Below, in pieces: positions 7,864-54,054 of a DNA stretch of 64,000 nucleotides. The stretch lies in NCBI GenBank assembly GCA_964482225.1, contig CAYZWT010000019.1, positions 3,909 to 67,908 on the forward strand, in the 5' to 3' direction. A program made the position numbers and the translations under genes. Below the pieces are notes generated by a model. That model was not told the DNA's origin, made no database searches, and was given only the letters and a program-made list of their open reading frames with translations. This DNA comes from an uncultured Anaerolineales bacterium (lineage in GTDB: Bacteria; Chloroflexota; Anaerolineae; UBA1429). Numbering within the stretch: position 1 is the first letter of the stretch; every line of letters starts with the position of its first letter.

Positions 7864-10773
7864 ATGCAGACGCCAAGCGCGCGTTGCCGGACCATGATCG
7901 GCGTTGCCGCCGGGATCCTCTTGGCCGCCCTGGCTCTGACCATCGCGACCTCCCTGGGCGCTGCCCGCGCGCCGGGGGGCCTGCCCGGCGGCGCCGTGCT
8001 GGCCATTGCCGCACATCCACGCTCGCCAGATACCCTGGTCGCAGCCACAACCCCGGGCCTGTTCCGCAGCCAAGATGGCGGCATGGCCTGGCAAAAGCTG
8101 GCGCAACCCCAAGACCCCGGGCGCATCGGGCAGTTGCTCTTTGCCTCCGATGGCGAGGTGTTGTACGCAGCGGGAACGCTGGGGCTGGCCATGCTGCGCG
8201 ATGGGGAGACCGTATGGCAGCGGGCGAGCGCCCTGGAACAGATCGAGATCGTCGCCCTGGCCGCCAGCCCGCTAGATGGCGCCCTCTATGTGGCGTCGCA
8301 TCGGCAGGTCTGGCGTAGCCCAGATAGGGGCGCAACCTGGGCTGCCCTGGCGGTTCCCGAGGGCGCCGGCGTGATCTCCGCCCTGGCCGCCCACCCTACA
8401 AGCGCCGGGATACTCTACCTGGGCGCCGAGGGCGGCCTATTCGTCTCGGGGGATCGCGGCGCAACCTGGTATCCCGTCCGGCCCGGCCCGATACACCAAC
8501 CGGTCACCTGGGTCGGATTCTGGGAAACGAACGGGACCCGGCGGCTCTATGCCGCCAGCGCCGACGCCCTTTGGCGCTCGGCGGATGACGGCGCCACCTG
8601 GCAATCTGTGAGCCTGCCAAGCCAGATCGTCGTGCAGGAGCAGCCCATACCCTGGAGCGTATCGCCCTTTATGGTTGAGGGGGCATCTGGGCTGCCGACG
8701 CTGGCGCCGGGCGAACGCCTGCTCTCGGCGGCGAGCACAGCCGCAAGCCCGCCCCGCTTGTACCTGGGCACCACGCGCACCTTGTACGCCAGCGCCGATG
8801 GCGGCCGCTCTTGGCGCGACCTGGTAGGGCAGCCGGCAGAGGCAAGCCCGGGGCGCTCGCCTTGGCAAAAGGTCTTGTACGGGCTGCCGCCCTATCTGGC
8901 CGGGGCCGGGCTCATGCTGGCTTTGTGGGGCGCAGGCATGATGTGGCGCGAGCGGCGCGAGGCGCGCAGACAGGCGCTGGATTCGCAAGGCGCGGGCGTC
9001 CGCTGGGATGATATCATCGCCGATGCCCTGCTGCGCCATCAGCGCGTCACGCCCGACCTATTGGAGCGCATTCCGGGCCAGGCCCGAGTGCACGCCATGA
9101 TCCGCTATGTGGACGCCCATCGCGACCAAGCCCTGATCTTTCAAGATGCGCCGCCCCTGATTGCGCCGGCGCGTGGCGATAGACTGCGCGCCTTTGCCGA
9201 TACATGGAACGACCTGACCCAAAAACTGGGCCAACGCGAGGCCGCTGTGGCTGCCGCTTCGCACCTGATCGAACAACTCTGTGGCCTGCTCGGTTTTGAG
9301 CCTGTGGAACGGCGCGTCTATCGCTCGCTGGCAGGCTATATGGTCGAGGCGCCCACCCTGCGGCTCAGCCTGCCCGCGCGCTTTCCGATCATCGTCTTGC
9401 TCAAAGATTCTCTCGAACGCGAGGATGTGCGCGATATCCGCGCCCTGATGTCGGCCCTGAACGCCGTCTCGTTCTTTGCCCTGCTGATCCCCGTCGGCGC
9501 GCCTTTGGATGGCGCCCGCCCGGCGCAGGCAATGCAGGGCCTGGCGCGCGAGGGCGCCGAGGACCTGATCGTCCTGGACTATCGCGAGCTGTACGGGCTG
9601 CACCTGGCCGCCGACGCCGAGTCGGACCTGGTGCGGCGCATCCTGGACCAGGTGGATCTCACCGTCGTATCGCCCTATGTGCTTTCGGGGCCGGTGCCCC
9701 CCAAGATGTTCTTTGGGCGCGATTACGAGATCAAGGTCATCATGCGCACCGTGCAGGATCGCAGCTTTGCCATCGTCGGGGGCCGCAAGATCGGCAAGAC
9801 CTCGATCCTGAACAAGGTACACCGGCTGCTACAGCAAACCGAGGGCTATAACCCCCTCTATCTCGATTGTCACCATGTCACGACCTATGAGGACTTTTTC
9901 GAGGCTCTCTCCGTGATGAGCGAGGTGTCGGCGGAATCCGCGGCGCCCGACATGCTGCGGCGCATCGTCGTGCGCCTGCGCGGGCGCCAGGGCGATCCGA
10001 GCCAGACCCTGGTCTTTTTGCTGGACGAGGTGGATCACCTGTTGCGCTATGACCTCCAACAGGGCACCCTGCTCTTTCGCGTGTTCCGTTCTCTCTCGCA
10101 AGAGGGGCTCTGCCGCTTTGTGTTCTGCGGCGAGCGCACCCTGGATACCGCCCTGCGCGACCCCAGTTCGCCTCTGTTCAACTTTTGCAGCACGCTACGG
10201 TTGGGCTATCTGCAAGAGCGCGATGCAGAGCGGATCGTGCAGGAGCCGATGCAGGAGATGGGCATCACTTTCGAGGCGCCCGAGCTGATACCGCAGGAGA
10301 TCGTGGCCCTCTCAGGCTGCCATCCCAATATCGTGCAGGCCATCTGCCAGTATCTGATCGAGCGGATCAACCAGCGGCAGGAGCGCGTGATCCGCGCCTC
10401 CGACCTGGCCCAGGTGCGCAACTCGACCGAGTTCCGCGATCTCTTTTTCGAGGTGAGTTGGGGGAATGCCACCACGCTGGAGCGCCTGATCACCGTGCTC
10501 ATGGCGGGGCGCGGGCGCTTTGGGCCCCAGCAGGTGCGCCAGGCCCTCCAGGGCGCCAGTATCGCCCTGAGCGACGCCGAGCTAGAGAGCGTTCTGAACA
10601 ACCTGGTGCTCACCTCTCTGATCAAGCGCCAGGGCCAACAACTCGAATACACATCGGCAGCCTTTGCGCGCGTGCTGGAAGAGGCGGGCTTGGCCGAGGG
10701 GTTACGCGATGGCCTGGTGGAAAAACTGCTGGAGGAGCGGAGAGATCACTCGGCAACGCCCAGCCAAAAGTGA
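7864..10773 (+). CDS. membrane protein: signal peptide + Asp-box (BNR-like) beta-propeller + single TM + cytoplasmic STAND/AAA-type P-loop NTPase with helical C-terminus
   Basis: 969 aa. Signal-like N-terminus MIGVAAGILLAALALTIATSLGAARA. Five SxDxGxxW Asp-boxes at aa 69, 151, 194, 238 and 309. TM helix aa ~337-360 (nt 8872-8943). FFGRDYE lead-in, then Walker A GGRKIGKTS (nt 9775-9798) and Walker B LVFLLDEVD (nt 10006-10029). Confidence 0.75.
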   Translation: MQTPSARCRTMIGVAAGILLAALALTIATSLGAARAPGGLPGGAVLAIAAHPRSPDTLVAATTPGLFRSQDGGMAWQKLAQPQDPGRIGQLLFASDGEVLYAAGTLGLAMLRDGETVWQRASALEQIEIVALAASPLDGALYVASHRQVWRSPDRGATWAALAVPEGAGVISALAAHPTSAGILYLGAEGGLFVSGDRGATWYPVRPGPIHQPVTWVGFWETNGTRRLYAASADALWRSADDGATWQSVSLPSQIVVQEQPIPWSVSPFMVEGASGLPTLAPGERLLSAASTAASPPRLYLGTTRTLYASADGGRSWRDLVGQPAEASPGRSPWQKVLYGLPPYLAGAGLMLALWGAGMMWRERREARRQALDSQGAGVRWDDIIADALLRHQRVTPDLLERIPGQARVHAMIRYVDAHRDQALIFQDAPPLIAPARGDRLRAFADTWNDLTQKLGQREAAVAAASHLIEQLCGLLGFEPVERRVYRSLAGYMVEAPTLRLSLPARFPIIVLLKDSLEREDVRDIRALMSALNAVSFFALLIPVGAPLDGARPAQAMQGLAREGAEDLIVLDYRELYGLHLAADAESDLVRRILDQVDLTVVSPYVLSGPVPPKMFFGRDYEIKVIMRTVQDRSFAIVGGRKIGKTSILNKVHRLLQQTEGYNPLYLDCHHVTTYEDFFEALSVMSEVSAESAAPDMLRRIVVRLRGRQGDPSQTLVFLLDEVDHLLRYDLQQGTLLFRVFRSLSQEGLCRFVFCGERTLDTALRDPSSPLFNFCSTLRLGYLQERDAERIVQEPMQEMGITFEAPELIPQEIVALSGCHPNIVQAICQYLIERINQRQERVIRASDLAQVRNSTEFRDLFFEVSWGNATTLERLITVLMAGRGRFGPQQVRQALQGASIALSDAELESVLNNLVLTSLIKRQGQQLEYTSAAFARVLEEAGLAEGLRDGLVEKLLEERRDHSATPSQK

Positions 10774-10976
10774 TGGGGCAGAACGTCGGGCGCGGCCTGC
10801 AGCCGCAAGCCATTGGCGTTGGCTTTTTCCTGCTCCAAGGCGTGCAGGCTCACATAGCAGACATTGGGGCGACGCCCGTACTTGTGCTCATAGTGGCGCG
10901 CGGCCAGCGCGAGCTTGTCCGCAAGGGGGCGGTCTCGGGCATCATCGAACCATAACATGCCAACGCGGAGAGACAT
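10746..10976 (-). CDS. hypothetical 76-aa protein downstream of a LexA-box promoter
   Basis: The ORF MSLRVGMLWFDDARDRPLADKLALAARHYEHKYGRRPNVCYVSL.. has host-like GC3-rich codons. AGGA sits 9 nt upstream of the ATG. Its 3' end overlaps the convergent 7864..10773 gene by 28 nt. No family was recognised. Confidence 0.6.
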   Translation of the reverse strand: MSLRVGMLWFDDARDRPLADKLALAARHYEHKYGRRPNVCYVSLHALEQEKANANGLRLQAAPDVLPHHFWLGVAE

Positions 10977-11056: not shown

Positions 11057-11129
11057 TGTGGATAGAGCCCTGATATGGAACGCGAAACGACGTGCGCCGG
11101 CCGCCCCTAGAACGGTTGTTCTATCCACA
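11057..11129. promoter_or_regulatory. pair of inverted DnaA-box-like 9-mers (CTATCCACA)
   Basis: TGTGGATAG at 11057-11065 and CTATCCACA at 11121-11129. Each has one mismatch to TTATCCACA. The second abuts the -10 of the LexA-box promoter. Confidence 0.4.
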
Positions 11130-11157
11130 GTATATACGAACATTTGTTCGATGTCAA
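11129..11157 (-). promoter_or_regulatory. sigma-70-type promoter with embedded LexA (Cheo-type) SOS box
   Basis: The minus strand reads TTGACA-tCGAACAAATGTTCGta-TATACT. The spacer is 17 nt. The perfect palindrome CGAACA/TGTTCG at 11137-11150 fits GAAC-N4-GTTC. Confidence 0.65.
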
Positions 11158-11229: not shown

Positions 11230-11436
11230 ATCGCCAAGCCGCCAAGCCGGAGAAAAACCGGTTCTGGCTCTCCCCTGCGCGCGTGACGCTCGGAAGCGTG
11301 ACGAGAGATTCCGGAAAGCGACACGAACCCATTTTCATCCTTGGTGGTGCGCTATGCGCATGAGGTCTATTCAGATTTTGGGGGACGAGTTCATGACCGC
11401 GTGTGCAAACAGGTATGCGCGCAAGACGCCCGCCCG

Positions 11437-11615
11437 GTAGGGGCGCGGCATGCCGCGCCCCTACCATAAAACCATAGAAAAACATATTAAACACGTATGG
11501 ACAGAACTGACGCCAGACGCATGTATGCGTCCATAGCGAGGCTGTGTGCTCACCGTTTGCAGGATATTGGCATCACTTCCTGGTCAATTAGGAACTCGTC
11601 CCCTTGAATCTGAAC
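11437..11615 (+). repeat. 28-bp perfect palindrome plus 158-bp interspersed repeat, copy A
   Basis: GTAGGGGCGCGGCA/TGCCGCGCCCCTAC occupies 11437-11464. Positions 11458-11615 align without gaps to 49405-49562 with about 7 mismatches. The repeat contains the hairpin GACGCAT-GT-ATGCGTC and an AT-rich head CCATAAAACCATAGAAAAACATATTAAAC. Confidence 0.9.
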
Positions 11616-14570: not shown

Positions 14571-16277
14571 ATGCAAGCGATGCCCGTTGCGATGGCCGCT
14601 ATCTCTGCCTCCTGGATCGCCTTGGCTCTCTTCTTTCAGGGCCTCGGGACCGCCTTTCTGGCACTAATTCCTTCACGGTACCGCTCTGGATCCTATCTTG
14701 AACATTCTTTTGTTTTTGGATTTTCTTGCCTAGTTATTTTTCTGCAATTATGGAACCTTTTCTTTCCTATTAGCTTTATCGCCTACATACCTCTGATTCC
14801 AATTTCAGCCTGGGGTAATGCTAGATATTACATATCATTACGTGAAACGAGCAGAAAAAGACTCCTGTTTTTATTTCGAGATGCTTTATTCTGGATCGCT
14901 ATCTCTATTCCTCTCTCTAATTGGTCCCTTGCGCATGGTATGCCAGGTGATACTGGTCTCTATCATATACCATTTATGAATTGGGTAAGAACATATCCTC
15001 TTCCAGTTGGGTTGGGCAATCTGCACGGTCGCCTTGCTTTTAATAACTCTTACTATTTATATGGAGCATCTCTATGGAGAATTCCAGGTCTGGATGCAAG
15101 TCATTTATGCCACGGCCCTTTTTTTCTTATTCTATTGCGTATAATCTGTAAAAGTCTATATAAGACTATCTTTTTTGCAGATAAAGTTCGTTTGAGTGAT
15201 TTATTTATTCTGGGGATTTCTCCCTATCTGATTCATCTTACTAGGGGTTATCTCAATAGTTATGCGTCTGATTTGATGGTATTTGTATTATCTGTGTCTA
15301 TTATTGTCATATTCATCGAGTATCTATACGGATCCCAGATTAATCCATATGCTCTTATTTTGCTGTTGTTCATGAGCTTATCTGCTATCATGGTCAAGAT
15401 AAGCTCATTGGGGTTAGTTGGCCCTATATCCCTTCTGGCCCTGATATGGTACATCAAGCGCGGTAACGCCGAAGCTGTTCGAGGCAGGAATCTTGTAGGC
15501 ATCGGAGCTCTATCGTTCCTCGGGTTGTGGGGGTGGGTCTGGAGGAGCGTACTAGCCAGCGGGTATCTTATATACCCCATTTCATGGCTCCCAGTGCCTG
15601 TAAGTTGGCGTGTCCCTTCTGAGAAGGTTGCGGAAGAGGCGCGATGGATTGTCAGTTGGGCACGAGCACCCGGGGAGCATTGGGCCGACGTGTTAGGCAA
15701 CTCGCGGTGGCTCTTGCCATGGATCGAACACCATGTTGCCAGATGGTTTGATGTCTCTTTTCCCGTGGCCCTAGCTGTCCTTATGCTAGTAGTTGCGCTC
15801 CTGAGGAGAGTACTGACGTCGCCTAGCAAGACCGTAAAGGGCAACTTTGCTTTCGCGGCGGTCTTTGTCTCAATTCTTGCCAATATAGCTTATTGGTTTC
15901 TTACAGCACCCGGGAGTCGATTTTCTATTGGTTTATTCTGGTTTTTATTTGCTTTTTCCTTCTCCTCCGCTTTATATTGTGACCAGAGGTGGAGCCGTGG
16001 TATAATTGCCAGAATTGCACTATGTATTACATTGGGGCTTTATATGCCTGTTATACATAGAATGAGTTTCTTTTACGGACCAGAGCAGAGACGTATCACG
16101 CCGACAGTAGAATTGAACGAATTCATCACAGATTCGGGTTTGCTGCTATTTGTTCCTGCTAAGGGGTATTCTTGCTGGGAAAGCCCCTTGCCCTGCACGC
16201 CCTACCCGGACTCCGCGCTGCGTTTGCGCCGATCTGGGGACCTAAGCAGCGGCTTTGAGATACGAGTCAAAGAGTAA
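14571..16277 (+). CDS. polytopic membrane protein, putative O-antigen/oligosaccharide polymerase (Wzy-like) or GT-C-type glycosyltransferase; compositionally foreign
   Basis: 568 aa with more than 10 predicted hydrophobic helices. From ~14700 to ~16200 the G+C drops to about 30-48% per 60-nt line, against the mid-60s in the flanks. It uses AGA/AGG, ATA and TTA codons that are rare elsewhere. Functional call rests on topology and the glycosyltransferase neighbourhood only. Confidence 0.6.
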   Translation: MQAMPVAMAAISASWIALALFFQGLGTAFLALIPSRYRSGSYLEHSFVFGFSCLVIFLQLWNLFFPISFIAYIPLIPISAWGNARYYISLRETSRKRLLFLFRDALFWIAISIPLSNWSLAHGMPGDTGLYHIPFMNWVRTYPLPVGLGNLHGRLAFNNSYYLYGASLWRIPGLDASHLCHGPFFLILLRIICKSLYKTIFFADKVRLSDLFILGISPYLIHLTRGYLNSYASDLMVFVLSVSIIVIFIEYLYGSQINPYALILLLFMSLSAIMVKISSLGLVGPISLLALIWYIKRGNAEAVRGRNLVGIGALSFLGLWGWVWRSVLASGYLIYPISWLPVPVSWRVPSEKVAEEARWIVSWARAPGEHWADVLGNSRWLLPWIEHHVARWFDVSFPVALAVLMLVVALLRRVLTSPSKTVKGNFAFAAVFVSILANIAYWFLTAPGSRFSIGLFWFLFAFSFSSALYCDQRWSRGIIARIALCITLGLYMPVIHRMSFFYGPEQRRITPTVELNEFITDSGLLLFVPAKGYSCWESPLPCTPYPDSALRLRRSGDLSSGFEIRVKE

Positions 16278-24863: not shown

Positions 24864-25298
24864 TTAGGCGTCCCCGCCGGCGCGCAAGAGCGCATTTTCC
24901 TGGGTGGCCATGTCTTGAAGGGTGGCTCCCTCCAGGGTAACGAGAAGCTGCTCCTGGGCGTGGCGCAGCACGGGATACAGGGCGCAGGTCTCGCGCCGGT
25001 CGCAGCTCTCAAAAGGGGCCAGGCAACGGCTCAGGGCGATGGGGCCCTCTACCGATTCGACAATCTCGCGCAGGGTGATCTCCTGGGGCGGGCGCGCCAA
25101 TGAAAAGCCGCCCTTGGCCCCGCGATGGGAGCGCAGAATCCCCCCCTTGGCCAGATCCTGCAGGATCTTGGCCAGGTAGCTCTCGGGGATGCCCTCCTCA
25201 CGCGCAATGTCGCCCACCAGCGCGATCGCATTGGCGGGCAGCTTGGCCAGATAGATCACGCCCCTGGCCCCATAATCGGTGCCCCTGGTCAAGCGCAC
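24864..25298 (-). CDS. Rrf2 family transcriptional regulator with Fe-S-type Cys triad
   Basis: VRLTRGTDYGARGVIYLA.., wHTH IPESYLAKILQDLAKGGILRSHRGAKGG, and Cys cluster SRCLAPFESCDRRETC. GTG 25298 lies 5 nt after GGAGGAGG. Confidence 0.85.
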   Translation of the reverse strand: MRLTRGTDYGARGVIYLAKLPANAIALVGDIAREEGIPESYLAKILQDLAKGGILRSHRGAKGGFSLARPPQEITLREIVESVEGPIALSRCLAPFESCDRRETCALYPVLRHAQEQLLVTLEGATLQDMATQENALLRAGGDA

Positions 25299-25420
25299 AG
25301 TCGCCTCCTCCGGTTCGCCAGAATCTTGCAGGCATTCTATCATAGAGCCAGGCTGCATACAAGATGAATGCACGCCTTTTTGTCCGAGCCAAGCCTCGCT
25401 TCAGGTTGAGGAGCAAGCCC

Positions 25421-35681: not shown

Positions 35682-35814
35682 GCTCTCCTCTCACCCGGGC
35701 GGATTCTAGCGCAAAGGGGCGTCGCTGTCCATCCGGCAGAGCCGATGGCGTCTGTTCAGATTTGGGGGATGAGATCATGACCCCGCGCTGACAGCTATGT
35801 GCGCTCAAGACGCT

Positions 35815-35837
35815 GGAGGGCGGGCGTCTCGCCCGCC
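35815..35837. repeat. GC-rich hairpin element, family 2
   Basis: GGAGGGCGGGCGTCTCGCCCGCC (8-bp stem GGCGGGCG/CGCCCGCC). It is identical to the 23-mer at 49339-49361, and a loop variant lies at 49001-49023. Confidence 0.85.
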
Positions 35838-36247
35838 TATGCTGCTTGGAGCGTCACGGGCAAGACGCCCGCGCCACAAGCTTACCCGCCGCTGTCGCCT
35901 AGTGTTCGTCGCTTCCCGCCAATTTCGTGCTGATACGTCCCGTGTTGCCGCCAGGACCGTGCCCACTTTTGTTGTGCGTCGTGTTCGCCCATGGCTACCG
36001 TGCAGTTGGCGGGAAAGGGTAATCGGGCAGGACAGGCACGCTTGTCAGCAGCCAAACCTGGCGGCCCTGAAGGCTACAGAAGCGCAATAGACAGTAATGC
36101 CGTCGAGCATACTGCCTGGGCACATCCCCCGATTTCGCCGCTCCTGCAAGGGCACGGTGCACGAGAGCCAGTTTCCGGAATCCGCAAGGCAACGTACAAT
36201 GGACTCAGACGCCCGTTCACAGTCCAGCGCGATAGGGAGGCACGGTC

Positions 36248-44938: not shown

Positions 44939-44982
44939 GCGTTGGAACGTTTGAACGTGCTAACGTTCGAACGTTCCAACGC
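44939..44982. repeat. 20-bp inverted repeat rich in AACGTT between convergent genes
   Basis: GCGTTGGAACGTTTGAACGT-GCTA-ACGTTCGAACGTTCCAACGC (one mismatch). The right arm encodes the last residues (GVGTFER*) of the ARH-fusion gene. Confidence 0.85.
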
Positions 44983-47080
44983 CCGCCGGCGCCACCGCCA
45001 CATCCTCGACCCCGATGCGGCCCTCCTCGATCAGGATCGCCATGGCCCCGCCGTCCAGGTCGCTGGCGTCCACCAGGTCGAACAGCACGTCGCCATCCAC
45101 CGAGCCGATCAGGCGACTGCCCTGGACGGTCAGCTCCAGCCGGTAGGGCCGGTAGAGTTCCCAGTCATAGGGGCGCTCGGCCAGTACGGCCCGGCCATAG
45201 CGCTGGCGCACCAGCCGCGCCACGCCCGGGGCCAGTTCCAGGGCAACATAGCGCTGCAACCCTTGCACCCGCGCGGCCAGCCCCATCGAGCGGGCCAGGT
45301 TGGCCGTGAGGGTGGCCGTCACGGTGTAATCGCGCCAATCCCGCGTCCCCTGAATCCACAAGCCGCGCCCCTCATTCTGGATCAACCGGTAGGGTTCCTC
45401 GGGGTGGGTGGCGGCGGCGCTGCATGCCTGGGTCCAGGCGCCGAACCAGCGGAGGCCCGCATGGGCGGGGGCGGCCAGGCGCACATCGGGGGCGCCCTCC
45501 CAGGTGAGCCAATCCAGATAGACGGCGCCATCCATGCGCTCAACCGAGCTCAACTCCACGCCCACCCAGGCGATGGGGCAGCCAGTGGGAACCTCCACGC
45601 GCCAGGCTGTCTCGATCTCGGCGCCGGGCGCCAGGGCAAACATTGGGCCGTAAAAGAGAGTCAGGGCGTCCTCGGCGCCGTAGGCTTTGACGAACAGCCT
45701 GCCCTGGACGGCGCGGGTGTTGGCGGCATCGGCGGAGAGGCGGGCGCGCAGCATCTGCCCCGGGAACAGCGTGGGCGAGGCCACCATGCGATAGCCCCCC
45801 GAGGCGGCCAGGCTGGGGTAAGTCTCACGCTGGGCTCGGGCGATGCGCCCCTGGGCCAGGGCCGTCAGGCGCAGCGCCAGGCTTCGGCTGCCCGCGCGGC
45901 TGTGGCCGGGCACATTCTCCAGGGCCAGCACCCCCTGGCACGCGGGGCTGTCCTCGGCGACGAACCCTTGCAGCGAGCCGGGCAGCTCGAAATGGTAGCG
46001 GGCGCCGCCCTTTAGCGCGGGCAGCGGCGCGCCCCAGAGCGAGCAGCCCACGGCGGCCACCCGGTGCGCCTCGGTTGCGGCGTCGGTGACGGCCTGGCCC
46101 ACATCCGCCGTGGGCAGGTACATCCGGTCGGCCACGGGGCCGCGCCAGTCGGGGCCCGCCTCCAGCCCCGCCAGGCCGTGGGCCACCCCCAGCACGCAGC
46201 CCACGTTGCCCGAGTTACAATCGGTATCCCAGCCAGCGGTGTTGACCACCGTCATGCCCCGTTGAAAGCTGCCGCCGCTATAGAGCAGCGCCAGGATCAC
46301 CACGGCGTGGTTGGGGATGATGTGGCAGTTGCCGCCATACTTGTCATAGCCATAGTGGGCCTCGATCTGGGCGAATGCCTCGTACCAGCTCTCGTAGCGG
46401 GCGTGCCAGGCGCGCACGTCCTGGATCACGCGATAGATCAGCGACGTGGCGGGGATCTGGGCCGCAGCGACATCCAGCAGGGCGGGGATCTCGGGCTCGG
46501 CAAAGGCCTGGGCTGCCAGGGCGGCCACCACCTGGGCGCCATAGATGGCCTCGCCATCGTGGCTGACGCTGGCGGCGCGGCGGGCCAGGTCGGCGGCCCG
46601 CTCCGGATCGCCGGGACAGATCAGGCCCCAGCCGTCAATAAAGATCTGCGCCCCGATCTGCTCGGCCACCACGGGGCCGTTGAGGGCGATGGAGCCGCTC
46701 TGGGGCGCGGGGATGCCCGCCTTGAGCCGCAGGTAGGCGGTGTGCTCGGTGGACATGCCCATGCCGCCCCACCAGAGGATGGTCTGGTTCTCGATCAGGT
46801 AATCGAGCCAGGTCTGGCCGATCTGCTCGGGCGTGAGGGCCAGGCCCACGCCATGATCGGGCATGGCCCGCAAAAAGGCGAACGTGCCCGAGATGTCATC
46901 GTCAATGACGATCAGCGGTTTGCTCAGCCTTTCATGGACATAGTATTGGATCTCGCCCAGCTCGGTCAGGATACGCTGGTGGCTCCAGCCCTCAAAGGGA
47001 CGCCCCACGTACACGCCAATGATCTTGCCCAGCACCCCGGCATAGACCCGCTCCAGATAGTCAGTGGGAATGGTCGCCAT
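44960..47080 (-). CDS. ADP-ribosylglycohydrolase-family domain fused to a ~370-aa C-terminal beta-rich (lectin/jelly-roll-like) region
   Basis: N-terminal ARH landmarks YAGVLGKIIGVYVGRPFEGW and AGWDTDCNSGNVGCVLGVAHG. The C-terminal part has the WRDYTVTATL..GLAARVQG..YVALEL pattern suggestive of a concanavalin-like fold. GGAGGGGG SD. Confidence 0.78.
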   Translation of the reverse strand: MATIPTDYLERVYAGVLGKIIGVYVGRPFEGWSHQRILTELGEIQYYVHERLSKPLIVIDDDISGTFAFLRAMPDHGVGLALTPEQIGQTWLDYLIENQTILWWGGMGMSTEHTAYLRLKAGIPAPQSGSIALNGPVVAEQIGAQIFIDGWGLICPGDPERAADLARRAASVSHDGEAIYGAQVVAALAAQAFAEPEIPALLDVAAAQIPATSLIYRVIQDVRAWHARYESWYEAFAQIEAHYGYDKYGGNCHIIPNHAVVILALLYSGGSFQRGMTVVNTAGWDTDCNSGNVGCVLGVAHGLAGLEAGPDWRGPVADRMYLPTADVGQAVTDAATEAHRVAAVGCSLWGAPLPALKGGARYHFELPGSLQGFVAEDSPACQGVLALENVPGHSRAGSRSLALRLTALAQGRIARAQRETYPSLAASGGYRMVASPTLFPGQMLRARLSADAANTRAVQGRLFVKAYGAEDALTLFYGPMFALAPGAEIETAWRVEVPTGCPIAWVGVELSSVERMDGAVYLDWLTWEGAPDVRLAAPAHAGLRWFGAWTQACSAAATHPEEPYRLIQNEGRGLWIQGTRDWRDYTVTATLTANLARSMGLAARVQGLQRYVALELAPGVARLVRQRYGRAVLAERPYDWELYRPYRLELTVQGSRLIGSVDGDVLFDLVDASDLDGGAMAILIEEGRIGVEDVAVAPAGVGTFER

Positions 47081-47107: not shown

Positions 47108-48541
47108 TCATTCTCGCGAACTCCGGTCCCGTGGCGTGATGCGCAACACCACCGCATGCTCGCAGGGTGCCTCTGCAGGGAGCCTGACGCGCAACCCGCG
47201 CACGCCCTGCGACCACTGGAGCGGCCCGGCAACGCCCAGCATCTCGACCGAGCCGATGGCCTGGGGGTACAGTTTCAGGTGGGCGCCCAAGGACTGGATC
47301 GTGACCTCGCCGCGCGCGGGCCAGCCAAGGACGATGGCATATAGGGTATCGCCTTTGGTGGTAAAACGGATATCCCGCTCGCCAAAGGCTGCGCGCTTGG
47401 TATCGGCAAAGGAACCACTGACTATCTCCGTAGGCCCCTCGCCATAGACGCGCCAGGGGCGCGTGCCATAGATCGCCTCTCCGTTCAGGGCCAGCCAGCG
47501 CCCCATCTCTAGCAGAATCTCTTGCTCCGGCTCGGGGATCACGCCATCGGGGCGCGGCCCGATATTCAGGAGCAGGGCCCCATTCTTGCTGACGATATCC
47601 ACCAGATCGCCGATCAGGGCGGTGGCCGTCTTGTAGTCCTGGTTCTGCACATAGCCCCAAGAGTTCTTGGAGACCGATGTGTCGGTTTGCCAGAACAGGG
47701 GGCGGATGTCGGCCAGTTGCCCCCGCTCGACGTCATAGACCGCTGCGCCATCGGGAAAGGCGCCGTGCTTGTAATTGATGGCCACACCCCGCTGCCACTG
47801 GGCGCCCCGGTTATAGTAATAGGCCGCAAAGCGACGCAGGTAGGGCGCAAAGGCGGGCTGCTCGATCCACCAATCGAACCAGACCAGTTGCGGCTGGTAC
47901 TTGTCCACCAGCTCGCAGGTGCGCGCCAACCAATCTTCTAGAAAGGCTTCGTGGGGCTCGGTGCTGCGGGGTTGGGCGGGGCCATACAGCCCGGCGTAGC
48001 GCGGGTCCTGCACATCCGAATCGAACTGCATGCCGCCATCGTAGAACCACCAATGTTCGGCCCGGTGGCTGGAAAGGCCCAAGACGAGCCACTGGCGGCG
48101 CACCGCCTCGGCCAGCTCTCCGATCAGGTCGCGGCGCGGCCCCATCTTGGCCGCGCACCAATCCGAGAGGCCGCAATCGTACATGGCGAACCCGTCGTGG
48201 TGCTCGGCAACGGGCACCACGAACTTGGCGCCCGCCTGGCGAAAGAGCCCGGCCCATTGGTCCGGGTCAAACCGCTCGGCTGTAAAGAGGGGGATCAGGT
48301 CCTTGTAGCCAAAGCGGGCCTGCGGCCCGTGGGTGGTCACATGGTGCTCATATTCGGGCGTGCCCTGCACATACATGTTGCGCGGGTACCATTCGTTCCC
48401 AAAGGCCGCCGCCGCATAGAGCCCCCAGTGGATAAAGATCCCAAACTTGGCATCCTGGTACCATTGAGGGATCTGATAGTCCAACAACGACTCCCAGGTC
48501 GGCTGAAACGGCCCTTCCGGCAGTGCCAGGCGGTTGTCCAT
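47108..48541 (-). CDS. alpha-L-fucosidase (GH29)
   Basis: AKFGIFIHWGLYAAAAFGNEWYPRNMY signature. 477 aa. GAGGAGG SD. Confidence 0.9.
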   Translation of the reverse strand: MDNRLALPEGPFQPTWESLLDYQIPQWYQDAKFGIFIHWGLYAAAAFGNEWYPRNMYVQGTPEYEHHVTTHGPQARFGYKDLIPLFTAERFDPDQWAGLFRQAGAKFVVPVAEHHDGFAMYDCGLSDWCAAKMGPRRDLIGELAEAVRRQWLVLGLSSHRAEHWWFYDGGMQFDSDVQDPRYAGLYGPAQPRSTEPHEAFLEDWLARTCELVDKYQPQLVWFDWWIEQPAFAPYLRRFAAYYYNRGAQWQRGVAINYKHGAFPDGAAVYDVERGQLADIRPLFWQTDTSVSKNSWGYVQNQDYKTATALIGDLVDIVSKNGALLLNIGPRPDGVIPEPEQEILLEMGRWLALNGEAIYGTRPWRVYGEGPTEIVSGSFADTKRAAFGERDIRFTTKGDTLYAIVLGWPARGEVTIQSLGAHLKLYPQAIGSVEMLGVAGPLQWSQGVRGLRVRLPAEAPCEHAVVLRITPRDRSSRE

Positions 48542-48595
48542 GTCGTGCGCCTCCTCTCGTCCATCTCGCAGCGGATTCTAGGCGCCAGGCGGGGT

Positions 48596-48614
48596 CTCGT
48601 CAAGGCATTCGGGG
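48596..48614 (+). repeat. intergenic repeat family 3, copy 1
   Basis: CTCGTCAAGGCATTCGGGG is identical to 48965-48983. Both copies are followed by an AAAGC..GCTTT hairpin. Confidence 0.8.
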
Positions 48615-48693
48615 ATGAGGGCGACCGGCACAGCAAAGCAGGAACAGCTCGCTTTACCATGACTGCGACCTTGAAAAGGCCCTGGCAAGAACC

Positions 48694-48722
48694 TTGTGTT
48701 AATAGAACAAATGTGCTATAAT
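48694..48722 (+). promoter_or_regulatory. candidate promoter with LexA-like half-degenerate box
   Basis: TTGTGT-17 nt-TATAAT. The spacer contains GAACAAATGTGC (48705-48716), one mismatch from GAAC-N4-GTTC. Confidence 0.4.
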
Positions 48723-48778
48723 TCGCCTGTGCGGGCGAGGCCCGCCCCTCTGGTCGCCTCGGAGCTCTCCCGCCCCAG

Positions 48779-48811
48779 GGCAGAGCGTATCGCATGTCAA
48801 CTGCCTTTTTT
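48779..48811 (+). terminator. weak hairpin followed by T6
   Basis: GGCAG-17 nt-CTGCC then TTTTTT. A T-run is unusual in this GC-rich DNA. Confidence 0.3.
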
Positions 48812-48828
48812 ACGAAACGAACCCATTT

Positions 48829-48865
48829 TGGGGATAACCATTTGGGATAAATAGGGTTATCCCAA
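48829..48865. promoter_or_regulatory. three weak DnaA-box-like motifs in an AT-rich patch
   Basis: TGGGGATAA (rc TTATCCCCA) at 48829-48837, TTGGGATAA at 48842-48850, and TTATCCCAA at 48857-48865. The last two form the inverted repeat TTTGGGATAA-N6-TTATCCCAAA. Confidence 0.4.
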
Positions 48866-48964
48866 ATCCCCCTCTCCTGATCCTGTCTACCCGCCCTCTC
48901 GGTGTGGTCTTGGCGGCAACACGAGGGGGGGGGCGCCTCAGTTACGCAAGTGGGTAGGAGCCAG

Positions 48965-48983
48965 CTCGTCAAGGCATTCGGGG
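48965..48983 (+). repeat. intergenic repeat family 3, copy 2
   Basis: CTCGTCAAGGCATTCGGGG, followed by a family-2 hairpin (49001-49023) and the perfect 10-bp hairpin CAAAGCAAGC-GCA-GCTTGCTTTG (49026-49048). Confidence 0.8.
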
Positions 48984-49000
48984 GCGGGGCCAGGGCGTTG

Positions 49001-49023
49001 GGAGGGCGGGCGAGGCGCCCGCC
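49001..49023. repeat. GC-rich hairpin element, family 2 (loop variant)
   Basis: GGAGGGCGGGCGAGGCGCCCGCC. Confidence 0.8.
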
Positions 49024-49194
49024 TGCAAAGCAAGCGCAGCTTGCTTTGTCCAGTACCCGGCTCCGTGCGCTATTGGCCGCCCCACTACACCTGGAGCCCA
49101 TCCGCTAGACACCGAGTATAGGACTTTGCTCTGCAAGGGAGCGCACCTTTTACACCACTTGACAAGACGCAAACGTCCATAGCGTGTTGGCCCG

Positions 49195-49259
49195 TTTTCC
49201 CCAGGTTGCCCACAGGTTATCCACAGGGACACGCGAGTTATCCACAGGTGTTTTCCACA
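49195..49259 (+). promoter_or_regulatory. array of five same-strand DnaA boxes
   Basis: TTTTCCCCA 49195, TTGCCCACA 49206, TTATCCACA 49217, TTATCCACA 49238, TTTTCCACA 49251. Each is followed by GG. Two are perfect consensus boxes. Confidence 0.7.
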
Positions 49260-49338
49260 GGGCCAGGGCGCACGTCGTATCAGTTCAGAATTGGGGGGGA
49301 AAGAGGCCAACACGTTGGGGACGGCGGCAGCGAACCGT

Positions 49339-49361
49339 GGAGGGCGGGCGTCTCGCCCGCC
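49339..49361. repeat. GC-rich hairpin element, family 2
   Basis: GGAGGGCGGGCGTCTCGCCCGCC, identical to 35815-35837. Confidence 0.85.
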
Positions 49362-49363
49362 TT

Positions 49364-49562
49364 GTAGGGGCGCGGCCAACGGTGGCGCAACCACCGTCCC
49401 TCGCCCCCTACCATAAAACCATAGAAACACACATTAAACACGTATGGGCAGAACTGACGCCAGACGCATGTATGCGTCCATAGCGAGGCTGTGTGCTCAC
49501 CGTTTGCAGGATATTGGCATCACTTCCTGGTCAATCAGGAACTCGTCCCCTCAATTCTGAAC
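49364..49562 (+). repeat. compound hairpin plus 158-bp interspersed repeat, copy B
   Basis: GTAGGGGCG..CGCCCCCTAC hairpin with inner ACGGTGG-CGCAA-CCACCGT. Positions 49405-49562 align to 11458-11615 with about 7 mismatches. Confidence 0.9.
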
Positions 49563-49593
49563 AGTTGCCGCATGTCCTCGCCCTGCCCACGGT

Positions 49594-49622
49594 TTGACAC
49601 CCCGCCCCGTTTGGCGCATAAC
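49594..49622 (+). promoter_or_regulatory. candidate promoter of the dehydratase gene
   Basis: TTGACA-17 nt-CATAAC, 41 nt upstream of ATG 49663. Confidence 0.5.
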
Positions 49623-49662
49623 TTGCGGGTCTGGATCACCAACCCGTTAGCAGGAGCACAAG

Positions 49663-50832
49663 ATGCACATCACCGAGATCAAGAGCTATCTGGTCAGCCC
49701 CCAGAGCCACACCGCCGGCATGATCGGCGGCAAGAACTGGCTCTTTGTCCAGATCAAAACCGACGAGGGCCTGGTGGGCTGGGGCGAGTGCTACACCCAG
49801 TTGGATCGGGATGTGGCCATCCAGCGCCATGTCCACGAGCTGTCGCGCTATCTGGTGGGCCAGAGCCCCTTTGCCATCAAGTATTTCACCACCACGGTCT
49901 ATCGTGATTTTGCCGGGCTGCGGGGCTCTATGGACCTCTATTGCGCCATGAGCGGCATGGAGCAGGCCATGTGGGACCTGGCGGGCAAGGCCCTGGGCGC
50001 GCCGGTGTACAATCTGCTGGGCGGCCCCTGCCGCGATCGCATCCGCGTCTATGCCAATGGCTGGTACGGCGGCGCCAAGACCCCCGAGGCCTATGGCGAG
50101 CTGGCCGCCGCCACCGTGGCGCGGGGCTTTACGGCGCTCAAGTTCGATCCCTTCCCCGGGCCGTGGCGCCTGTACGTGGATCGCGCCGGCGAGCGCGCCT
50201 TTGTGGATACTATCGCCGCCGTGCGCGAGGCGGTGGGCCCCGATGTGGACCTGCTGATTGAGGGGCACCGGCGGCTGGCCCCCATGCACGCCGTGCGCCT
50301 GGCCCGCGAGATCGCGCCCCTGGGCATCTACTGGTACGAGGAGCCGGTGCCTGTGGATAACGTGGCCGCCCTGGCCGAGGTGCGCAGCGAGGCGCCCATG
50401 CCCATCGTCACAGGGGAGACCCTTTACTGCAAGGCGGATTTCGTGCCGGTGTTCGAGGCGCGCGCGGCGGATATCATCAACCCCGACGTGTGCAGTTGCG
50501 GCGGCATCCTGGAGCTCAAAGAGATCGCGGCCATGGCCGAGCCCCACTATGTGGCCGTCTCGCCCCACAACTATAACAGCACCAGCATGGGGCTGGCCGC
50601 CACGGTGCAGGCCGCGGCCACCATGCCCAATTTCATCATCACCGAGTATTTCTGCAATTTCGAGGCCACCAGCGCCCTGATCGCCCGCAACCCGCTCAAG
50701 CCGGAGAACAGCTATATCGCGCTGCCCGAGCGGCCGGGGCTGGGGGTGGAGCTGGACGAAGAGGCGCTGGCGGCTCATGCCTACCAGCAGTATCCCCGAC
50801 GCACGTTTGTGGGGATGGGCGGCGAGCTGTAG
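49663..50832 (+). CDS. enolase-superfamily dehydratase (galactonate dehydratase-like; paralogue of 1837..2955)
   Basis: MHITEIKSYLVSP..NWLFVQIKTDEGLVGWGEC, with YWYEEPV and VTGETLY blocks. 389 aa. Confidence 0.88.
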   Translation: MHITEIKSYLVSPQSHTAGMIGGKNWLFVQIKTDEGLVGWGECYTQLDRDVAIQRHVHELSRYLVGQSPFAIKYFTTTVYRDFAGLRGSMDLYCAMSGMEQAMWDLAGKALGAPVYNLLGGPCRDRIRVYANGWYGGAKTPEAYGELAAATVARGFTALKFDPFPGPWRLYVDRAGERAFVDTIAAVREAVGPDVDLLIEGHRRLAPMHAVRLAREIAPLGIYWYEEPVPVDNVAALAEVRSEAPMPIVTGETLYCKADFVPVFEARAADIINPDVCSCGGILELKEIAAMAEPHYVAVSPHNYNSTSMGLAATVQAAATMPNFIITEYFCNFEATSALIARNPLKPENSYIALPERPGLGVELDEEALAAHAYQQYPRRTFVGMGGEL

Positions 50833-50929
50833 CGCGCACGCCTGGGCCTGCTTTGCGGCCAGGGCGCGGGTTGGGTAGAATGGGCATTGTCCCTCGGGCA
50901 ACCGGTTGCGCCGCCCGAGAGCAGACGCC

Positions 50930-51856
50930 ATGATTGGAAAGGAGAGCATCTTGGACAAGAGACTGCCGATACTCGGCATCGCTACGTTGGTCATCCTGGG
51001 GCTGGTGGTGATCGTGCACCTGGTGGGGCTGGCGGCCCCTGCCCAGGGCGGGCTGACGGCCAGGGGCGAGGCGAGCGACCTGCCCGCGCGGCCCACCCGC
51101 ACCGCCACCCCCTCTGCGACGCCGCTGCCGCCCACCGCCACGCCAACGGCCACGGCCACGCCCGTGCCGCCCACGCCAACGCCGGTGCCGCCGACGGCCA
51201 CGGCCACGGCCACGCTGCCGCCCGCCACAGCCACGCCCACGGCGACCGAAACGCCAGAGCCGACGCAGACGCCGCCCCCGACGGCGATCCCGCCGACGCG
51301 GGTTCCGGCGCCCACCAACACGCCCGTTCCCACGGCGGCGCCGGTGACGGTGCTCAGCTCGGTGCAGGTGAACAACGGCGAGTGGGGCAGCAACTATATC
51401 TTTGCGCGTTATGACAACCCCGAGGGCGACGAGGTCAGCGATGTGCGCGTCAAAGCATCGGACGGACACACGTACAAGGCCGAGCTCGGTTTCCTCTCAC
51501 GCTCGCAATCGTTGGCCCAGATTCAGGCCTACTGGGGTTATGCCCAGCGCGGCGCGGCCAACTGGAAAGGCTTTGTGCGCGTATATGACGCGGTGAATTG
51601 GATCTCGTGCAGCGCCGAGGCCCATGTCTGCTATGAAAAGCACGAGGATTTCGGCCAGGCGGCCATCACATCCAGGGTATATATCAAGCCCCACGTGTGG
51701 GAGTCGTTGGTGAACGACTATTTGGCCGGGGGCTGGCAGGCAACCACCCGCAACGCCTACTATCGCGAGGTCCAGAACGCGGTCTTTAGGCCGATCATTG
51801 ACATTGATCCGCCCGCCGAGCCGTGCATCGGGTTCCGGTTCGTGCGCGTGGATTAG
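50930..51856 (+). CDS. membrane-anchored protein with Thr/Pro-rich linker and unknown ~170-aa C-terminal domain
   Basis: ATG 50930 (MIGKESILDKRLPILGIATLVILGLVVIVHLVGL), a linker of TPT/ATP repeats, and a globular C-terminus with 4 Cys. No family was recognised. Confidence 0.65.
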   Translation: MIGKESILDKRLPILGIATLVILGLVVIVHLVGLAAPAQGGLTARGEASDLPARPTRTATPSATPLPPTATPTATATPVPPTPTPVPPTATATATLPPATATPTATETPEPTQTPPPTAIPPTRVPAPTNTPVPTAAPVTVLSSVQVNNGEWGSNYIFARYDNPEGDEVSDVRVKASDGHTYKAELGFLSRSQSLAQIQAYWGYAQRGAANWKGFVRVYDAVNWISCSAEAHVCYEKHEDFGQAAITSRVYIKPHVWESLVNDYLAGGWQATTRNAYYREVQNAVFRPIIDIDPPAEPCIGFRFVRVD

Positions 51857-53592: not shown

Positions 53593-54054
53593 ATGATGTC
53601 TGACAAACAACAGCGCGCGGCAGGTCTCGTGGTCGAGGTGATCCCCAAGATCATGCGTGCGCTGGCCTCGGATTGGCGCCATGTGGATGATCGGGCCGAC
53701 CCCGGGCACTTTCGTATCCTGCTGATCCTGACCGAGGGGCCCGCCAACCTCAGCGCCCTGGCCGCCAAACTGGAGGTCAGCCTGCCCACCATGTCCAACT
53801 CGATCTCGACCCTGGTGGAGCGCGGTTGGGTGGCGCGCCGCCGCGACCCGGAAGACCGGCGGCGGGTGCTAATCGAGATTACGGCCCAGGGATGCGCCGT
53901 GTTGGAGCGCATCCGCCATGTCGCCCAGATCCAGGTCGAGCGGACTCTGCGCGATCTGACGGATGTGGAATATGACCAGATCATCGCCGGCCTGGATACC
54001 CTGCGCCGCGCCCTGGATGGAGAGGATAGCGCCCTCTGCCACAAGCAAGCGTAG
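53593..54054 (+). CDS. MarR family transcriptional regulator
   Basis: wHTH LSALAAKLEVSLPTMSNSISTLVERGWVARRRDPEDRRRVLIEIT. Confidence 0.88.
   Translation: MMSDKQQRAAGLVVEVIPKIMRALASDWRHVDDRADPGHFRILLILTEGPANLSALAAKLEVSLPTMSNSISTLVERGWVARRRDPEDRRRVLIEITAQGCAVLERIRHVAQIQVERTLRDLTDVEYDQIIAGLDTLRRALDGEDSALCHKQA

What the first reader, a model, noticed from the sequence alone, without database searches (positions are those of the whole stretch)
48542..49662. Gene-free 1.1-kb region with a phased DnaA-box array: candidate oriC or DnaA-titration locus
This is the largest non-coding stretch in the window. No ORF in it has coding-like composition. It lies between genes transcribed away from it (GH29 start 48541 on the minus strand, dehydratase start 49663 on the plus strand).

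Five same-strand 9-mers match or nearly match the DnaA box TTATCCACA, each followed by GG:
- TTTTCCCCA at 49195
- TTGCCCACA at 49206
- TTATCCACA at 49217
- TTATCCACA at 49238
- TTTTCCACA at 49251

Start-to-start spacings among the last four are 11, 21 and 13 bp, close to helical phasing.

Three weaker boxes sit in an AT-rich patch at 48829-48865. A ~35-nt, roughly 70% A+T tract (49411-49445) lies about 150 bp downstream of the array.

No dnaA or dnaN gene is in the window. The region could therefore be an origin unlinked to dnaA, a datA/DARS-like DnaA reservoir, or a DnaA-controlled promoter. The downstream sugar-acid dehydratase is an unlikely DnaA target.
Basis: partly seen in the sequence, partly recalled or inferred. 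Interest (0 to 1): 0.75.

Follow-up and report, generated by a model that had tools for sequence, protein, structure and literature searches.

The report
Conserved DnaA-box operator, not an origin
The row of DnaA-type boxes is real and is conserved in related bacteria as an upstream control element of a sugar-acid dehydratase promoter, while the 1.1-kb gene-free stretch and its AT-rich tracts come from recent insertions of small mobile repeats, so this is not a replication origin.

Summary
Five same-strand units of the form G-TTnnCCaCA-GG lie at 49194-49261, two of them perfect TTATCCACA. In 400 Markov simulations of the window, none gave three same-strand boxes within 50 bp.

The origin reading does not hold. 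The window comes from an uncultured Anaerolineales (Chloroflexota) genome. In eight related species, the same head-to-tail array sits 14-53 bp upstream of a conserved promoter, TTGACA-17-CATAAC, of the orthologous enolase-superfamily dehydratase. One exception (L014) has it about 230 bp away because of an insertion. Two boxes 21-22 bp apart are as invariant as the promoter hexamers, while the spacers drift freely.

In the closest relative the whole intergenic region is 266 bp. Here it is 1121 bp because of about 554 bp and 301 bp of extra sequence.

The orthologous regions have no AT-rich unwinding element and no DnaA-trios. The window shows no GC-skew switch and no origin-linked genes.

Best reading: an extra-origin DnaA-box cluster acting as a promoter operator. 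The 12-mer equals E. coli R1 with its flanks, and the spacings are typical of such boxes. An unidentified regulator that binds 11-nt direct repeats remains a serious rival.

The parts
47108..48541 (-). GH29 alpha-L-fucosidase gene. It was inserted in this lineage between the ADP-ribosylglycohydrolase gene (44960-47080) and the control region.
   Evidence: Pfam Alpha_L_fucos, E=1e-102. Present only in the window, L007 and L208; absent in L009-L012 and L014.
48575..48603 (-). Divergent sigma-70-type promoter, TTGACG-17-TAGAAT, serving the GH29/ADP-ribosylglycohydrolase genes.
   Evidence: The same TTGACG-17-TAGAnT element is conserved upstream of the minus-strand gene in L007 and L009-L012.
48583..49193 (.). 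A 611-bp block that corresponds to only 57 bp in L007 (about 554 bp extra). It contains 19-nt direct repeats at 48596-48614 and 48965-48983 that bracket 369 bp.
   Evidence: blastn of L007 against the window; repeats; sequence.
49194..49261 (+). The DnaA-box-type array, five head-to-tail 12-mers. Two weak boxes start at 49194 and 49205, two perfect GTTATCCACAGG boxes at 49216 and 49237, and GTTTTCCACAGG at 49250.
   Evidence: The orthologous arrays are in L007, L008, L009, L010, L011, L012/L209, L014 and L211. L007 5833-5903 is 90% identical.
49284..49561 (.). A 278-bp MITE with terminal inverted repeats TTCAGAATTGGGGGG / CCCCTCAATTCTGAA, flanked by CAG on both sides.
   Evidence: Inverted repeat I7. 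Second copy at 11370-11614, 97% identical over 147 nt. Partial third copy at 35756. Absent from L007. Folds as a long hairpin, z = -6.0. Contigs of the same organism break here.
49594..49622 (+). Dehydratase promoter: -35 TTGACA (49594-49599), a 17-bp spacer, and -10 CATAAC (49617-49622).
   Evidence: Both hexamers and the exact 17-bp spacing are conserved in all array-bearing species.
49652..50832 (+). Shine-Dalgarno sequence AGGAG (49652-49656) and the enolase-superfamily acid-sugar dehydratase gene (49663-50832).
   Evidence: Pfam MR_MLE_N/C. NCBIfam galactonate/gluconate dehydratase-like, but below every equivalog cutoff. PDB relatives are MR/MLE dehydratases.

Best explanation
The array is a conserved cis-regulatory operator made of DnaA-type boxes. 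It belongs to the sigma-70-type promoter of an enolase-superfamily acid-sugar dehydratase operon, within a divergent control region shared with an ADP-ribosylglycohydrolase-family gene.

Shown by the data:
- Two high-affinity-type boxes (GTTATCCACAG) lie two helical turns apart and are invariant across species.
- Weaker boxes in the same orientation sit at 11- or 13-bp steps.
- Ancestrally the array lies just upstream of the -35 element.

Inferred:
- The replication initiator DnaA, probably as a head-to-tail ATP-DnaA oligomer nucleated on the two perfect boxes and extended over the weak ones, occupies the array and modulates the promoter.
- The effect is more likely positive, because the boxes lie wholly upstream of a perfect -35 that is paired with a weak -10.
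- The array also ties up some DnaA as a by-product.

In this genome a 278-bp MITE has pushed the array to about 330 bp from the -35. About 554 bp of other inserted sequence separates it from the divergent promoter. These insertions created the 1.1-kb 'gene-free' region and its AT-rich tracts. It is not a replication origin.
For: 1. Conservation with the promoter. Same-strand arrays lie upstream of the orthologous dehydratase in L007, L008, L009, L010, L011, L012/L209, L014 and L211. The dehydratase is 69-95% identical in L007-L014.

2. Footprint. In a 7-species alignment, the invariant columns are TCCACAG of one box, GTTATCCACAG of the next, the -35 TTGACA, the -10 GCATAA and the Shine-Dalgarno sequence. 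The spacers are free to vary.

3. Linkage. The array is absent where the dehydratase lacks this divergent arrangement (L013, L015-L021). It is also absent where the ADP-ribosylglycohydrolase has another neighbour (L208, L210).

4. Likeness to DnaA boxes.
- The 12-mer GTTATCCACAGG is identical to E. coli oriC box R1 with its flanks, and all four E. coli R boxes are preceded by G.
- In a metagenome-wide sample of tandem GTTATCCACAG pairs, start-to-start spacings of 11-13 and 21-22 bp dominate, as they do here.
- Three of those loci lie next to dnaA (two of them also next to dnaN), and several carry 10-39 boxes.
- Boxes in those loci that the search pattern did not select also prefer G at -1 (57%) and G at +1 (56%).

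5. Precedent. B. subtilis DnaA stably binds non-origin intergenic clusters of 4-8 boxes. It directly regulates the adjacent genes sda, ywlC and yydA, and such clusters are conserved across Bacillus species (PMC2533591). By that paper's A-value, L007 (1.43) and L014 (1.50) exceed its 0.3 threshold.

6. No regulator gene is adjacent. The only ones in the window are a MarR gene three genes away, which is absent from L011, and an Rrf2 gene 24 kb away.
Against: 1. No binding data exist, and no dnaA locus of this clade could be fetched to confirm that its own origin uses this box.

2. By the B. subtilis criterion of at least four boxes with at most one mismatch, the window's array scores only A = 0.08, and L008-L012 also fall below 0.3. 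Stable DnaA occupancy is therefore not assured.

3. The distance from the last box to the -35 varies, at 14, 14, 14, 15, 20, 27, 32 and about 53 bp, and more than 200 bp in L014. This is not what a phase-dependent activator would tolerate.

4. A sugar-acid dehydratase has no known link to DnaA.

5. Direct repeats with an 11-bp period are also typical of OmpR/PhoB-type response regulators, and 21-bp direct repeats of AraC-type regulators (from general knowledge, not tested here).
Confidence: 0.55

Rival explanations
1. The repeats are the operator of a dedicated transcription factor that is encoded elsewhere and is not DnaA. Candidates are an OmpR/PhoB/MtrA-type response regulator that reads 11-nt direct repeats, or an AraC-type sugar regulator that reads 21-bp direct repeats. 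The factor would control the dehydratase operon in response to a carbon or stress signal, and the match to the DnaA box would be coincidental.
For: The array is strictly linked to a catabolic-type promoter in eight species. The most conserved core is TCCACAG plus the flanking G residues, which extends beyond the classical 9-mer. Periodicities are 11 and 21-22 bp. L009-L012 carry a partial palindrome, CCACAGGCTGTGG. From memory only: the MtrA motif GTCACAG and the AraC half-site TTTATCCATA resemble the unit.
Against: The perfect 9-mer TTATCCACA is itself conserved, and the full 12-mer equals E. coli R1. The same flanks and spacings are general properties of tandem DnaA-type boxes across phyla, including next to dnaA. 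No regulator gene co-occurs with the array. Every bacterium has DnaA, so DnaA would be expected to bind perfect boxes in any case.
Confidence: 0.3
2. The array is a chromosomal DnaA reservoir or modulator of the datA or DARS type, or a Bacillus-like DnaA-box cluster. Its main role would be to titrate or recycle DnaA, and its position at the promoter would be incidental.
For: It is a dense head-to-tail cluster with two top-affinity boxes. In this genome the cluster remains intact although insertions have moved it away from both promoters. Some conserved Bacillus clusters have no known transcriptional role (PMC2533591).
Against: Conservation follows the promoter. The array is absent whenever the dehydratase or the ADP-ribosylglycohydrolase sits in another context. 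In the window all boxes are head-to-tail, whereas DARS needs a head-to-head pair of boxes I and II, and datA needs an IHF site with defined spacing (PMC10380432). No such features are conserved here. There are only 3-5 boxes. The insertions are recent (L007 is 95% identical and lacks them), so an intact array says little about selection.
Confidence: 0.1
3. The region is a chromosomal replication origin (oriC) that is not linked to dnaA.
For: It has a cluster of DnaA-type boxes in a long non-coding region between divergent genes, with AT-rich tracts within 200-400 bp.
Against: The AT-rich tracts lie in a MITE and in an inserted block that L007 lacks. Most of the orthologous intergenic regions are only 205-266 bp long, already hold two promoters, and reach at most 50-67% A+T in any 30-nt window (L007, L009-L012, L014); L008 is 340 bp and has an 87% A+T stretch. 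None has DnaA-trios. There are only 2-4 good boxes. GC skew is weakly negative on both sides, from 38 to 56 kb. Eight consecutive + strand genes lie to the left of the locus. No origin-linked genes were found among the window genes scanned.
Confidence: 0.03

Closest known systems
Bacillus subtilis non-origin DnaA-box clusters and DnaA-regulated promoters (sda, ywlC, yydA; Ishikawa et al. 2007, PMC2533591)
   Same: It is an intergenic cluster of 4-8 closely spaced boxes, including perfect TTATCCACA, lying next to promoters. Its position is conserved across related species. DnaA acts there as a transcription factor. L007 and L014 pass that paper's A > 0.3 criterion.
   Different: The phylum is different (Chloroflexota) and the neighbouring gene is a sugar-acid dehydratase. 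The window's own array has only 3 boxes with at most one mismatch (A = 0.08). All boxes share one orientation. No binding data exist.
Left DnaA-oligomerisation region of E. coli oriC (R1 plus head-to-tail low-affinity sites)
   Same: The anchor box is identical to R1 with its flanks (GTTATCCACAGG). Weaker boxes in the same orientation are separated by 2 bp, giving an 11-bp period. Head-to-tail arrays favour ATP-DnaA oligomers (PMC10380432).
   Different: There is no unwinding element, no conserved IHF site, no opposing array and no origin context.
E. coli datA and DARS1/2
   Same: They are non-origin chromosomal DnaA-box clusters in intergenic DNA.
   Different: DARS requires a head-to-head pair of boxes I and II. 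datA requires an IHF site at a fixed spacing from boxes 2, 3 and 7. Neither arrangement is present or conserved here.
Bacterial MITEs
   Same: The 278-bp element has terminal inverted repeats and 3-bp flanking repeats, encodes no protein, occurs in multiple copies and folds as a long hairpin.
   Different: The parent transposon was not identified.

Membership tests
Bacterial chromosomal origin (oriC) | Cluster of DnaA boxes | tested here: met
   Five same-strand boxes, two of them perfect. The cluster is modest: 3 boxes with at most one mismatch, and A = 0.08 by the Ishikawa metric.
Bacterial chromosomal origin (oriC) | Adjacent AT-rich DNA-unwinding element, conserved together with the boxes | tested here: not met
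   The AT-rich tracts of the window lie in a MITE and in an inserted block that L007 lacks. In six of the seven orthologous regions the most AT-rich 30-nt window reaches only 50-67% A+T (L008 has an 87% stretch about 70 bp upstream of its array), and none has DnaA-trios.
Bacterial chromosomal origin (oriC) | GC-skew switch or gene-strand switch at the locus | tested here: inconclusive
   The skew is weakly negative on both sides from 38 to 56 kb with no inflection at 49 kb, and + strand genes dominate to the left. However, only 64 kb is available and the skew is weak.
Bacterial chromosomal origin (oriC) | Linkage to dnaA, dnaN or other origin-proximal genes | tested here: not met
   None among the roughly 45 window genes scanned.
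Bacterial chromosomal origin (oriC) | Initiation of replication in vivo (marker frequency, autonomous replication) | not testable with these tools
   This needs culture work or read-depth data from growing cells.
Extra-origin DnaA-box cluster / DnaA-regulated promoter | Several closely spaced boxes matching TTATNCACA, including high-affinity TTATCCACA, in a promoter region | tested here: met
   Ancestrally the array lies 14-53 bp upstream of the -35.
Extra-origin DnaA-box cluster / DnaA-regulated promoter | Conserved at the syntenic site in related species | tested here: met
   Eight related species carry it, and the boxes are as invariant as the promoter hexamers.
Extra-origin DnaA-box cluster / DnaA-regulated promoter | Box density and affinity above the empirical threshold for stable binding (A > 0.3, PMC2533591) | tested here: inconclusive
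   L007 scores 1.43 and L014 scores 1.50, which pass. The window scores 0.08 and L008-L012 score below 0.3, which fail, because the 2-mismatch boxes are not counted.
Extra-origin DnaA-box cluster / DnaA-regulated promoter | DnaA binding and DnaA-dependent transcription | not testable with these tools
   This needs EMSA, ChIP or reporter assays.
DARS | Core of boxes I-III with a head-to-head pair of boxes I and II | tested here: not met
   In the window, L007, L008 and L014 all array boxes are head-to-tail. Only L009-L012 have a weak inverted box, and L211 has an inverted half-box after its array (definition from PMC10380432).
datA | IHF site at a fixed spacing from the essential boxes | not tested
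   No IHF-site scan was run. No conserved non-box element is visible in the array region of the alignment.
MITE | Short non-coding element with terminal inverted repeats, flanking duplication and multiple copies | tested here: met

The most novel reading that the evidence does not exclude
DnaA itself, or a paralogue carrying the DnaA DNA-binding domain, directly gates an acid-sugar dehydratase operon throughout a clade of uncultured Anaerolineales, coupling the state of the replication initiator to carbon use. The same array would double as a chromosomal DnaA sink. It would be the first DnaA regulon element or DnaA-box cluster described in Chloroflexota. In this genome, a MITE would have just uncoupled it from its promoter.
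Probability: 0.35. Interest if true: 0.5.

Novelty: new member of a known kind. Interest (0 to 1): 0.3.

Why it matters
The case shows how MITE and REP-like insertions can inflate a compact bacterial control region into something that looks like an origin. That matters for origin prediction in metagenome-assembled genomes.

If DnaA does bind here, it would give a first, directly testable DnaA target outside the origin in Chloroflexota. It would also give an unusual link between the replication initiator and sugar-acid metabolism.

There is a natural experiment as well. L007 has the operator next to its promoter. The window organism has the same operator moved 278 bp away by a MITE.

Tried and rejected
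- **Rfam and tRNA scans.** Rfam at gathering thresholds on the whole window and at permissive E-values on 48400-49800 found nothing credible. The tRNA/tmRNA scan found none.
- **Small RNA in the inserted block.** A small RNA at 48726-48815, downstream of the promoter-like site, was considered. Its fold is no better than shuffled sequence (z = -0.19).
- **Local regulator.** Only a MarR gene (53593-54054, absent from L011) and an Rrf2 gene (24864-25373) are present.
- **Array as part of the MITE.** Rejected, because copy 1 at 11370 has no array upstream and L007 has the array without the MITE.
- **Array following the ADP-ribosylglycohydrolase promoter.** Rejected, because L208 keeps that promoter and has no array.
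- **Fetching a dnaA locus of the clade.** This failed. The metagenome pattern scan returned dnaA-linked arrays only from other taxa (L094, L100, L157). Literature searches for Chloroflexi or Anaerolinea origins gave nothing usable.
- **First Markov simulation.** It timed out and was rerun successfully.
Full report
**1. The observation**

The five 9-mers lie at the stated coordinates on the + strand. The repeated unit is really a 12-mer, G-TTnnCCaCA-GG, at 49194, 49205, 49216, 49237 and 49250.

Two units are perfect TTATCCACA. The whole 64-kb window (65% G+C) has only three perfect copies. It has ten matches with at most one mismatch, against 4.6 expected. Three same-strand boxes within 50 bp never occurred in 400 Markov simulations of the window.

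No ORF between 48578 and 49650 has coding-type third-position G+C. The flanking genes are a GH29 fucosidase on the minus strand and an MR_MLE enolase-superfamily dehydratase on the plus strand.

**2. What the 1.1 kb is made of**

Positions 49405-49551 are 97% identical to 11458-11604 in the same window. With its terminal inverted repeats (TTCAGAATTGGGGGG / CCCCTCAATTCTGAA) and flanking CAG, this defines a 278-bp MITE at 49284-49561.

- A second copy lies at 11370-11614 and a partial third at about 35756.
- The element folds as a long hairpin (z = -6.0).
- Contigs of the same organism from other metagenomes break in this region. One contig (L002) joins window position ~11.4 kb to ~49.5 kb through the two MITE copies.

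The closest genome is Anaerolineales UBA1429 (L007), whose dehydratase is 95% identical. Its whole intergenic region is 266 bp. Only three segments align with the window:

| Segment | L007 | Window |
|---|---|---|
| GH29 start and its promoter | 5600-5775 | 48407-48582 |
| The array (90% identity) | 5833-5903 | 49194-49264 |
| Promoter spacer/-10 and dehydratase start | 5946-6100 | 49608-49762 |

The window therefore carries about 554 bp of extra sequence to the left of the array and 301 bp to the right. The left block contains the AT-rich patch with the 'weaker boxes', which is an inverted repeat. It also contains a 369-bp piece bracketed by 19-nt direct repeats, and REP-like GC hairpins that recur at 35815.

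The 'largest gene-free stretch' is thus a small control region swollen by insertions.

**3. The array is a conserved promoter element**

The organism belongs to Anaerolineales, Chloroflexota. Same-strand arrays of the same boxes precede the orthologous dehydratase in L007, L008, L009, L010, L011, L012 (the same sequence as L209), L014 and L211.

They lie just upstream of a promoter whose -35 (TTGACA), exact 17-bp spacer and -10 (CATAAC, CATAAA or CATAGT) are conserved. In the window this promoter is at 49594-49622.

In L009-L012 the array fills the roughly 75 bp between this promoter and a divergent one, TTGACG-17-TAGAnT. The divergent promoter corresponds to window 48603-48575. It drives a 706-aa ADP-ribosylglycohydrolase-family gene.

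A 7-species alignment shows a clear footprint. TCCACAG of one box and GTTATCCACAG of the next, 21 bp apart, are as invariant as the promoter hexamers and the Shine-Dalgarno sequence. The spacers are not conserved.

The array is missing in three situations:
- The dehydratase lies in another context (L013 and L015-L021).
- The ADP-ribosylglycohydrolase operon has another divergent partner, even though it keeps the same minus-strand promoter (L208).
- That gene sits behind a sulfatase gene with no dehydratase nearby (L210).

The array therefore travels with this dehydratase promoter.

**4. Why it is not an origin**

- Six of the seven orthologous intergenic regions are 205-466 bp long and reach no more than 50-67% A+T in any 30-nt window. 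Often the most AT-rich window is the boxes themselves. L008 has an 87% A+T stretch about 70 bp upstream of its array, in sequence the other species do not share. None of the seven has a run of DnaA-trios.
- Every AT-rich tract in the window is in inserted DNA.
- GC skew is weakly negative on both sides of the locus, from 38 to 56 kb.
- Eight consecutive + strand genes lie to the left.
- The window encodes ordinary chromosomal genes, such as dnaE, scpA, galK, glycosidases and ABC exporters. None of the usual origin neighbours was found among the genes scanned.
- There are only two to four good boxes per species.

**5. Who binds it**

Arguments for DnaA:
- The 12-mer GTTATCCACAGG is identical to E. 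coli oriC box R1 with its flanks, and all four R boxes there are preceded by G.
- A metagenome scan for tandem GTTATCCACAG pairs returned 80 loci from organisms of 26-75% G+C. Three loci were beside dnaA, two of them also beside dnaN, and several carried 10-39 boxes.
- In those loci the gaps between units peak at 0-2 and 10-11 nt. That corresponds to spacings of 11-13 and 21-22 bp, the same as here.
- Perfect boxes in those loci that the pattern did not select also prefer G at -1 (57%) and G at +1 (56%).
- Head-to-tail arrays with a strong anchor and 2-bp-spaced weak sites are how ATP-DnaA oligomers assemble in E. coli oriC (PMC10380432).
- B. subtilis DnaA stably binds non-origin intergenic clusters and regulates the adjacent genes. 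Those clusters are conserved among Bacillus species (PMC2533591).

Arguments against, or leaving it open:
- By that paper's A-value, only L007 (1.43) and L014 (1.50) pass the 0.3 threshold. The window scores 0.08, because two of its boxes have two mismatches.
- The distance from box to -35 is not phase-locked across species.
- A dehydratase is an unexpected DnaA target.
- 11-nt and 21-nt direct repeats also suit response regulators and AraC-type factors. This point rests on my own knowledge and was not tested.
- No regulator gene co-occurs with the array.
- I could not retrieve a dnaA locus of this clade to compare boxes.

**6. Verdict**

The origin reading is not supported.

The best-supported reading is a conserved operator made of DnaA-type boxes at the dehydratase promoter. 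This is an extra-origin DnaA-box cluster of a known kind in a new phylum and gene context. In this genome, mobile-element insertions have separated it from both promoters.

- That it is a promoter-linked cis element and not an origin: about 0.85-0.9.
- That DnaA is the binder: about 0.55.

Interest is modest.

Noticed in passing
window 11370-11614, 49284-49561, ~35756-35840; L002: A MITE family with TIR TTCAGAWTTGGGGG has three copies in 64 kb. One metagenome contig (ERZ27252300 k141_134469) joins window ~11.4 kb directly to ~49.5 kb through two copies. That is either a 38-kb deletion variant in the population or a chimeric assembly.
   Followed up: partly
window 11129-11157 (minus strand) and ORF 10746-10976 (minus strand): A perfect Gram-positive-type LexA (Cheo) box, CGAACATTTGTTCG (11138-11151), lies in the spacer of a strong minus-strand promoter, TTGACA-17-TATACT. 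Downstream is a 76-aa ORF that was not searched against protein families here (one search lists no Pfam hit for the equivalent gene in L002). It is a candidate SOS-regulated small protein. Two CTATCCACA boxes in opposite orientation flank the site (11057, 11121).
   Followed up: no
window 48694-48811: Inside the inserted block there is a promoter-like TTGTGT-17-TGcTATAAT with a half Cheo box (GAACAAATGT) in its spacer. It is followed by a GC hairpin and a hairpin with a T6 run. There is no Rfam hit and the fold is no better than shuffled sequence. It may be a remnant or a small transcript carried in with the insertion.
   Followed up: partly
window 48596-48614 and 48965-48983: An exact 19-nt direct repeat, CTCGTCAAGGCATTCGGGG, brackets 369 bp that L007 lacks. 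The repeat includes the -35 of the minus-strand promoter. This suggests an insertion with an unusually long target duplication, or a local duplication.
   Followed up: partly
window 35815-35838, 49001-49024, 49339-49362, 48731-48748: A REP-like GC-rich hairpin, GGAGGGCGGGCG(n)CGCCCGCCT, recurs in intergenic DNA.
   Followed up: no
window 14571-16277: A 568-aa ORF with no Pfam match lies in a patch of 52% G+C within a 65% G+C genome. It may be horizontally acquired.
   Followed up: no
L009-L012 arrays (e.g. L011 5893-5922): In the more distant species, a weak inverted box lies between the two direct boxes (CCACAGGCTGTGGAAAG), giving a right-left-right arrangement. The window's sub-clade lacks it. 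L121, from an unrelated metagenome, has the same GTTATCCACAGGCTGTGGATAAGTTATCCACAG layout.
   Followed up: partly
window 50906-51856: The gene after the dehydratase encodes a membrane-anchored protein with a Pro/Thr-rich linker and a conserved C-terminal domain of about 170 aa of unknown function. It is co-conserved with the dehydratase in L007, L009, L012 and L014.
   Followed up: no
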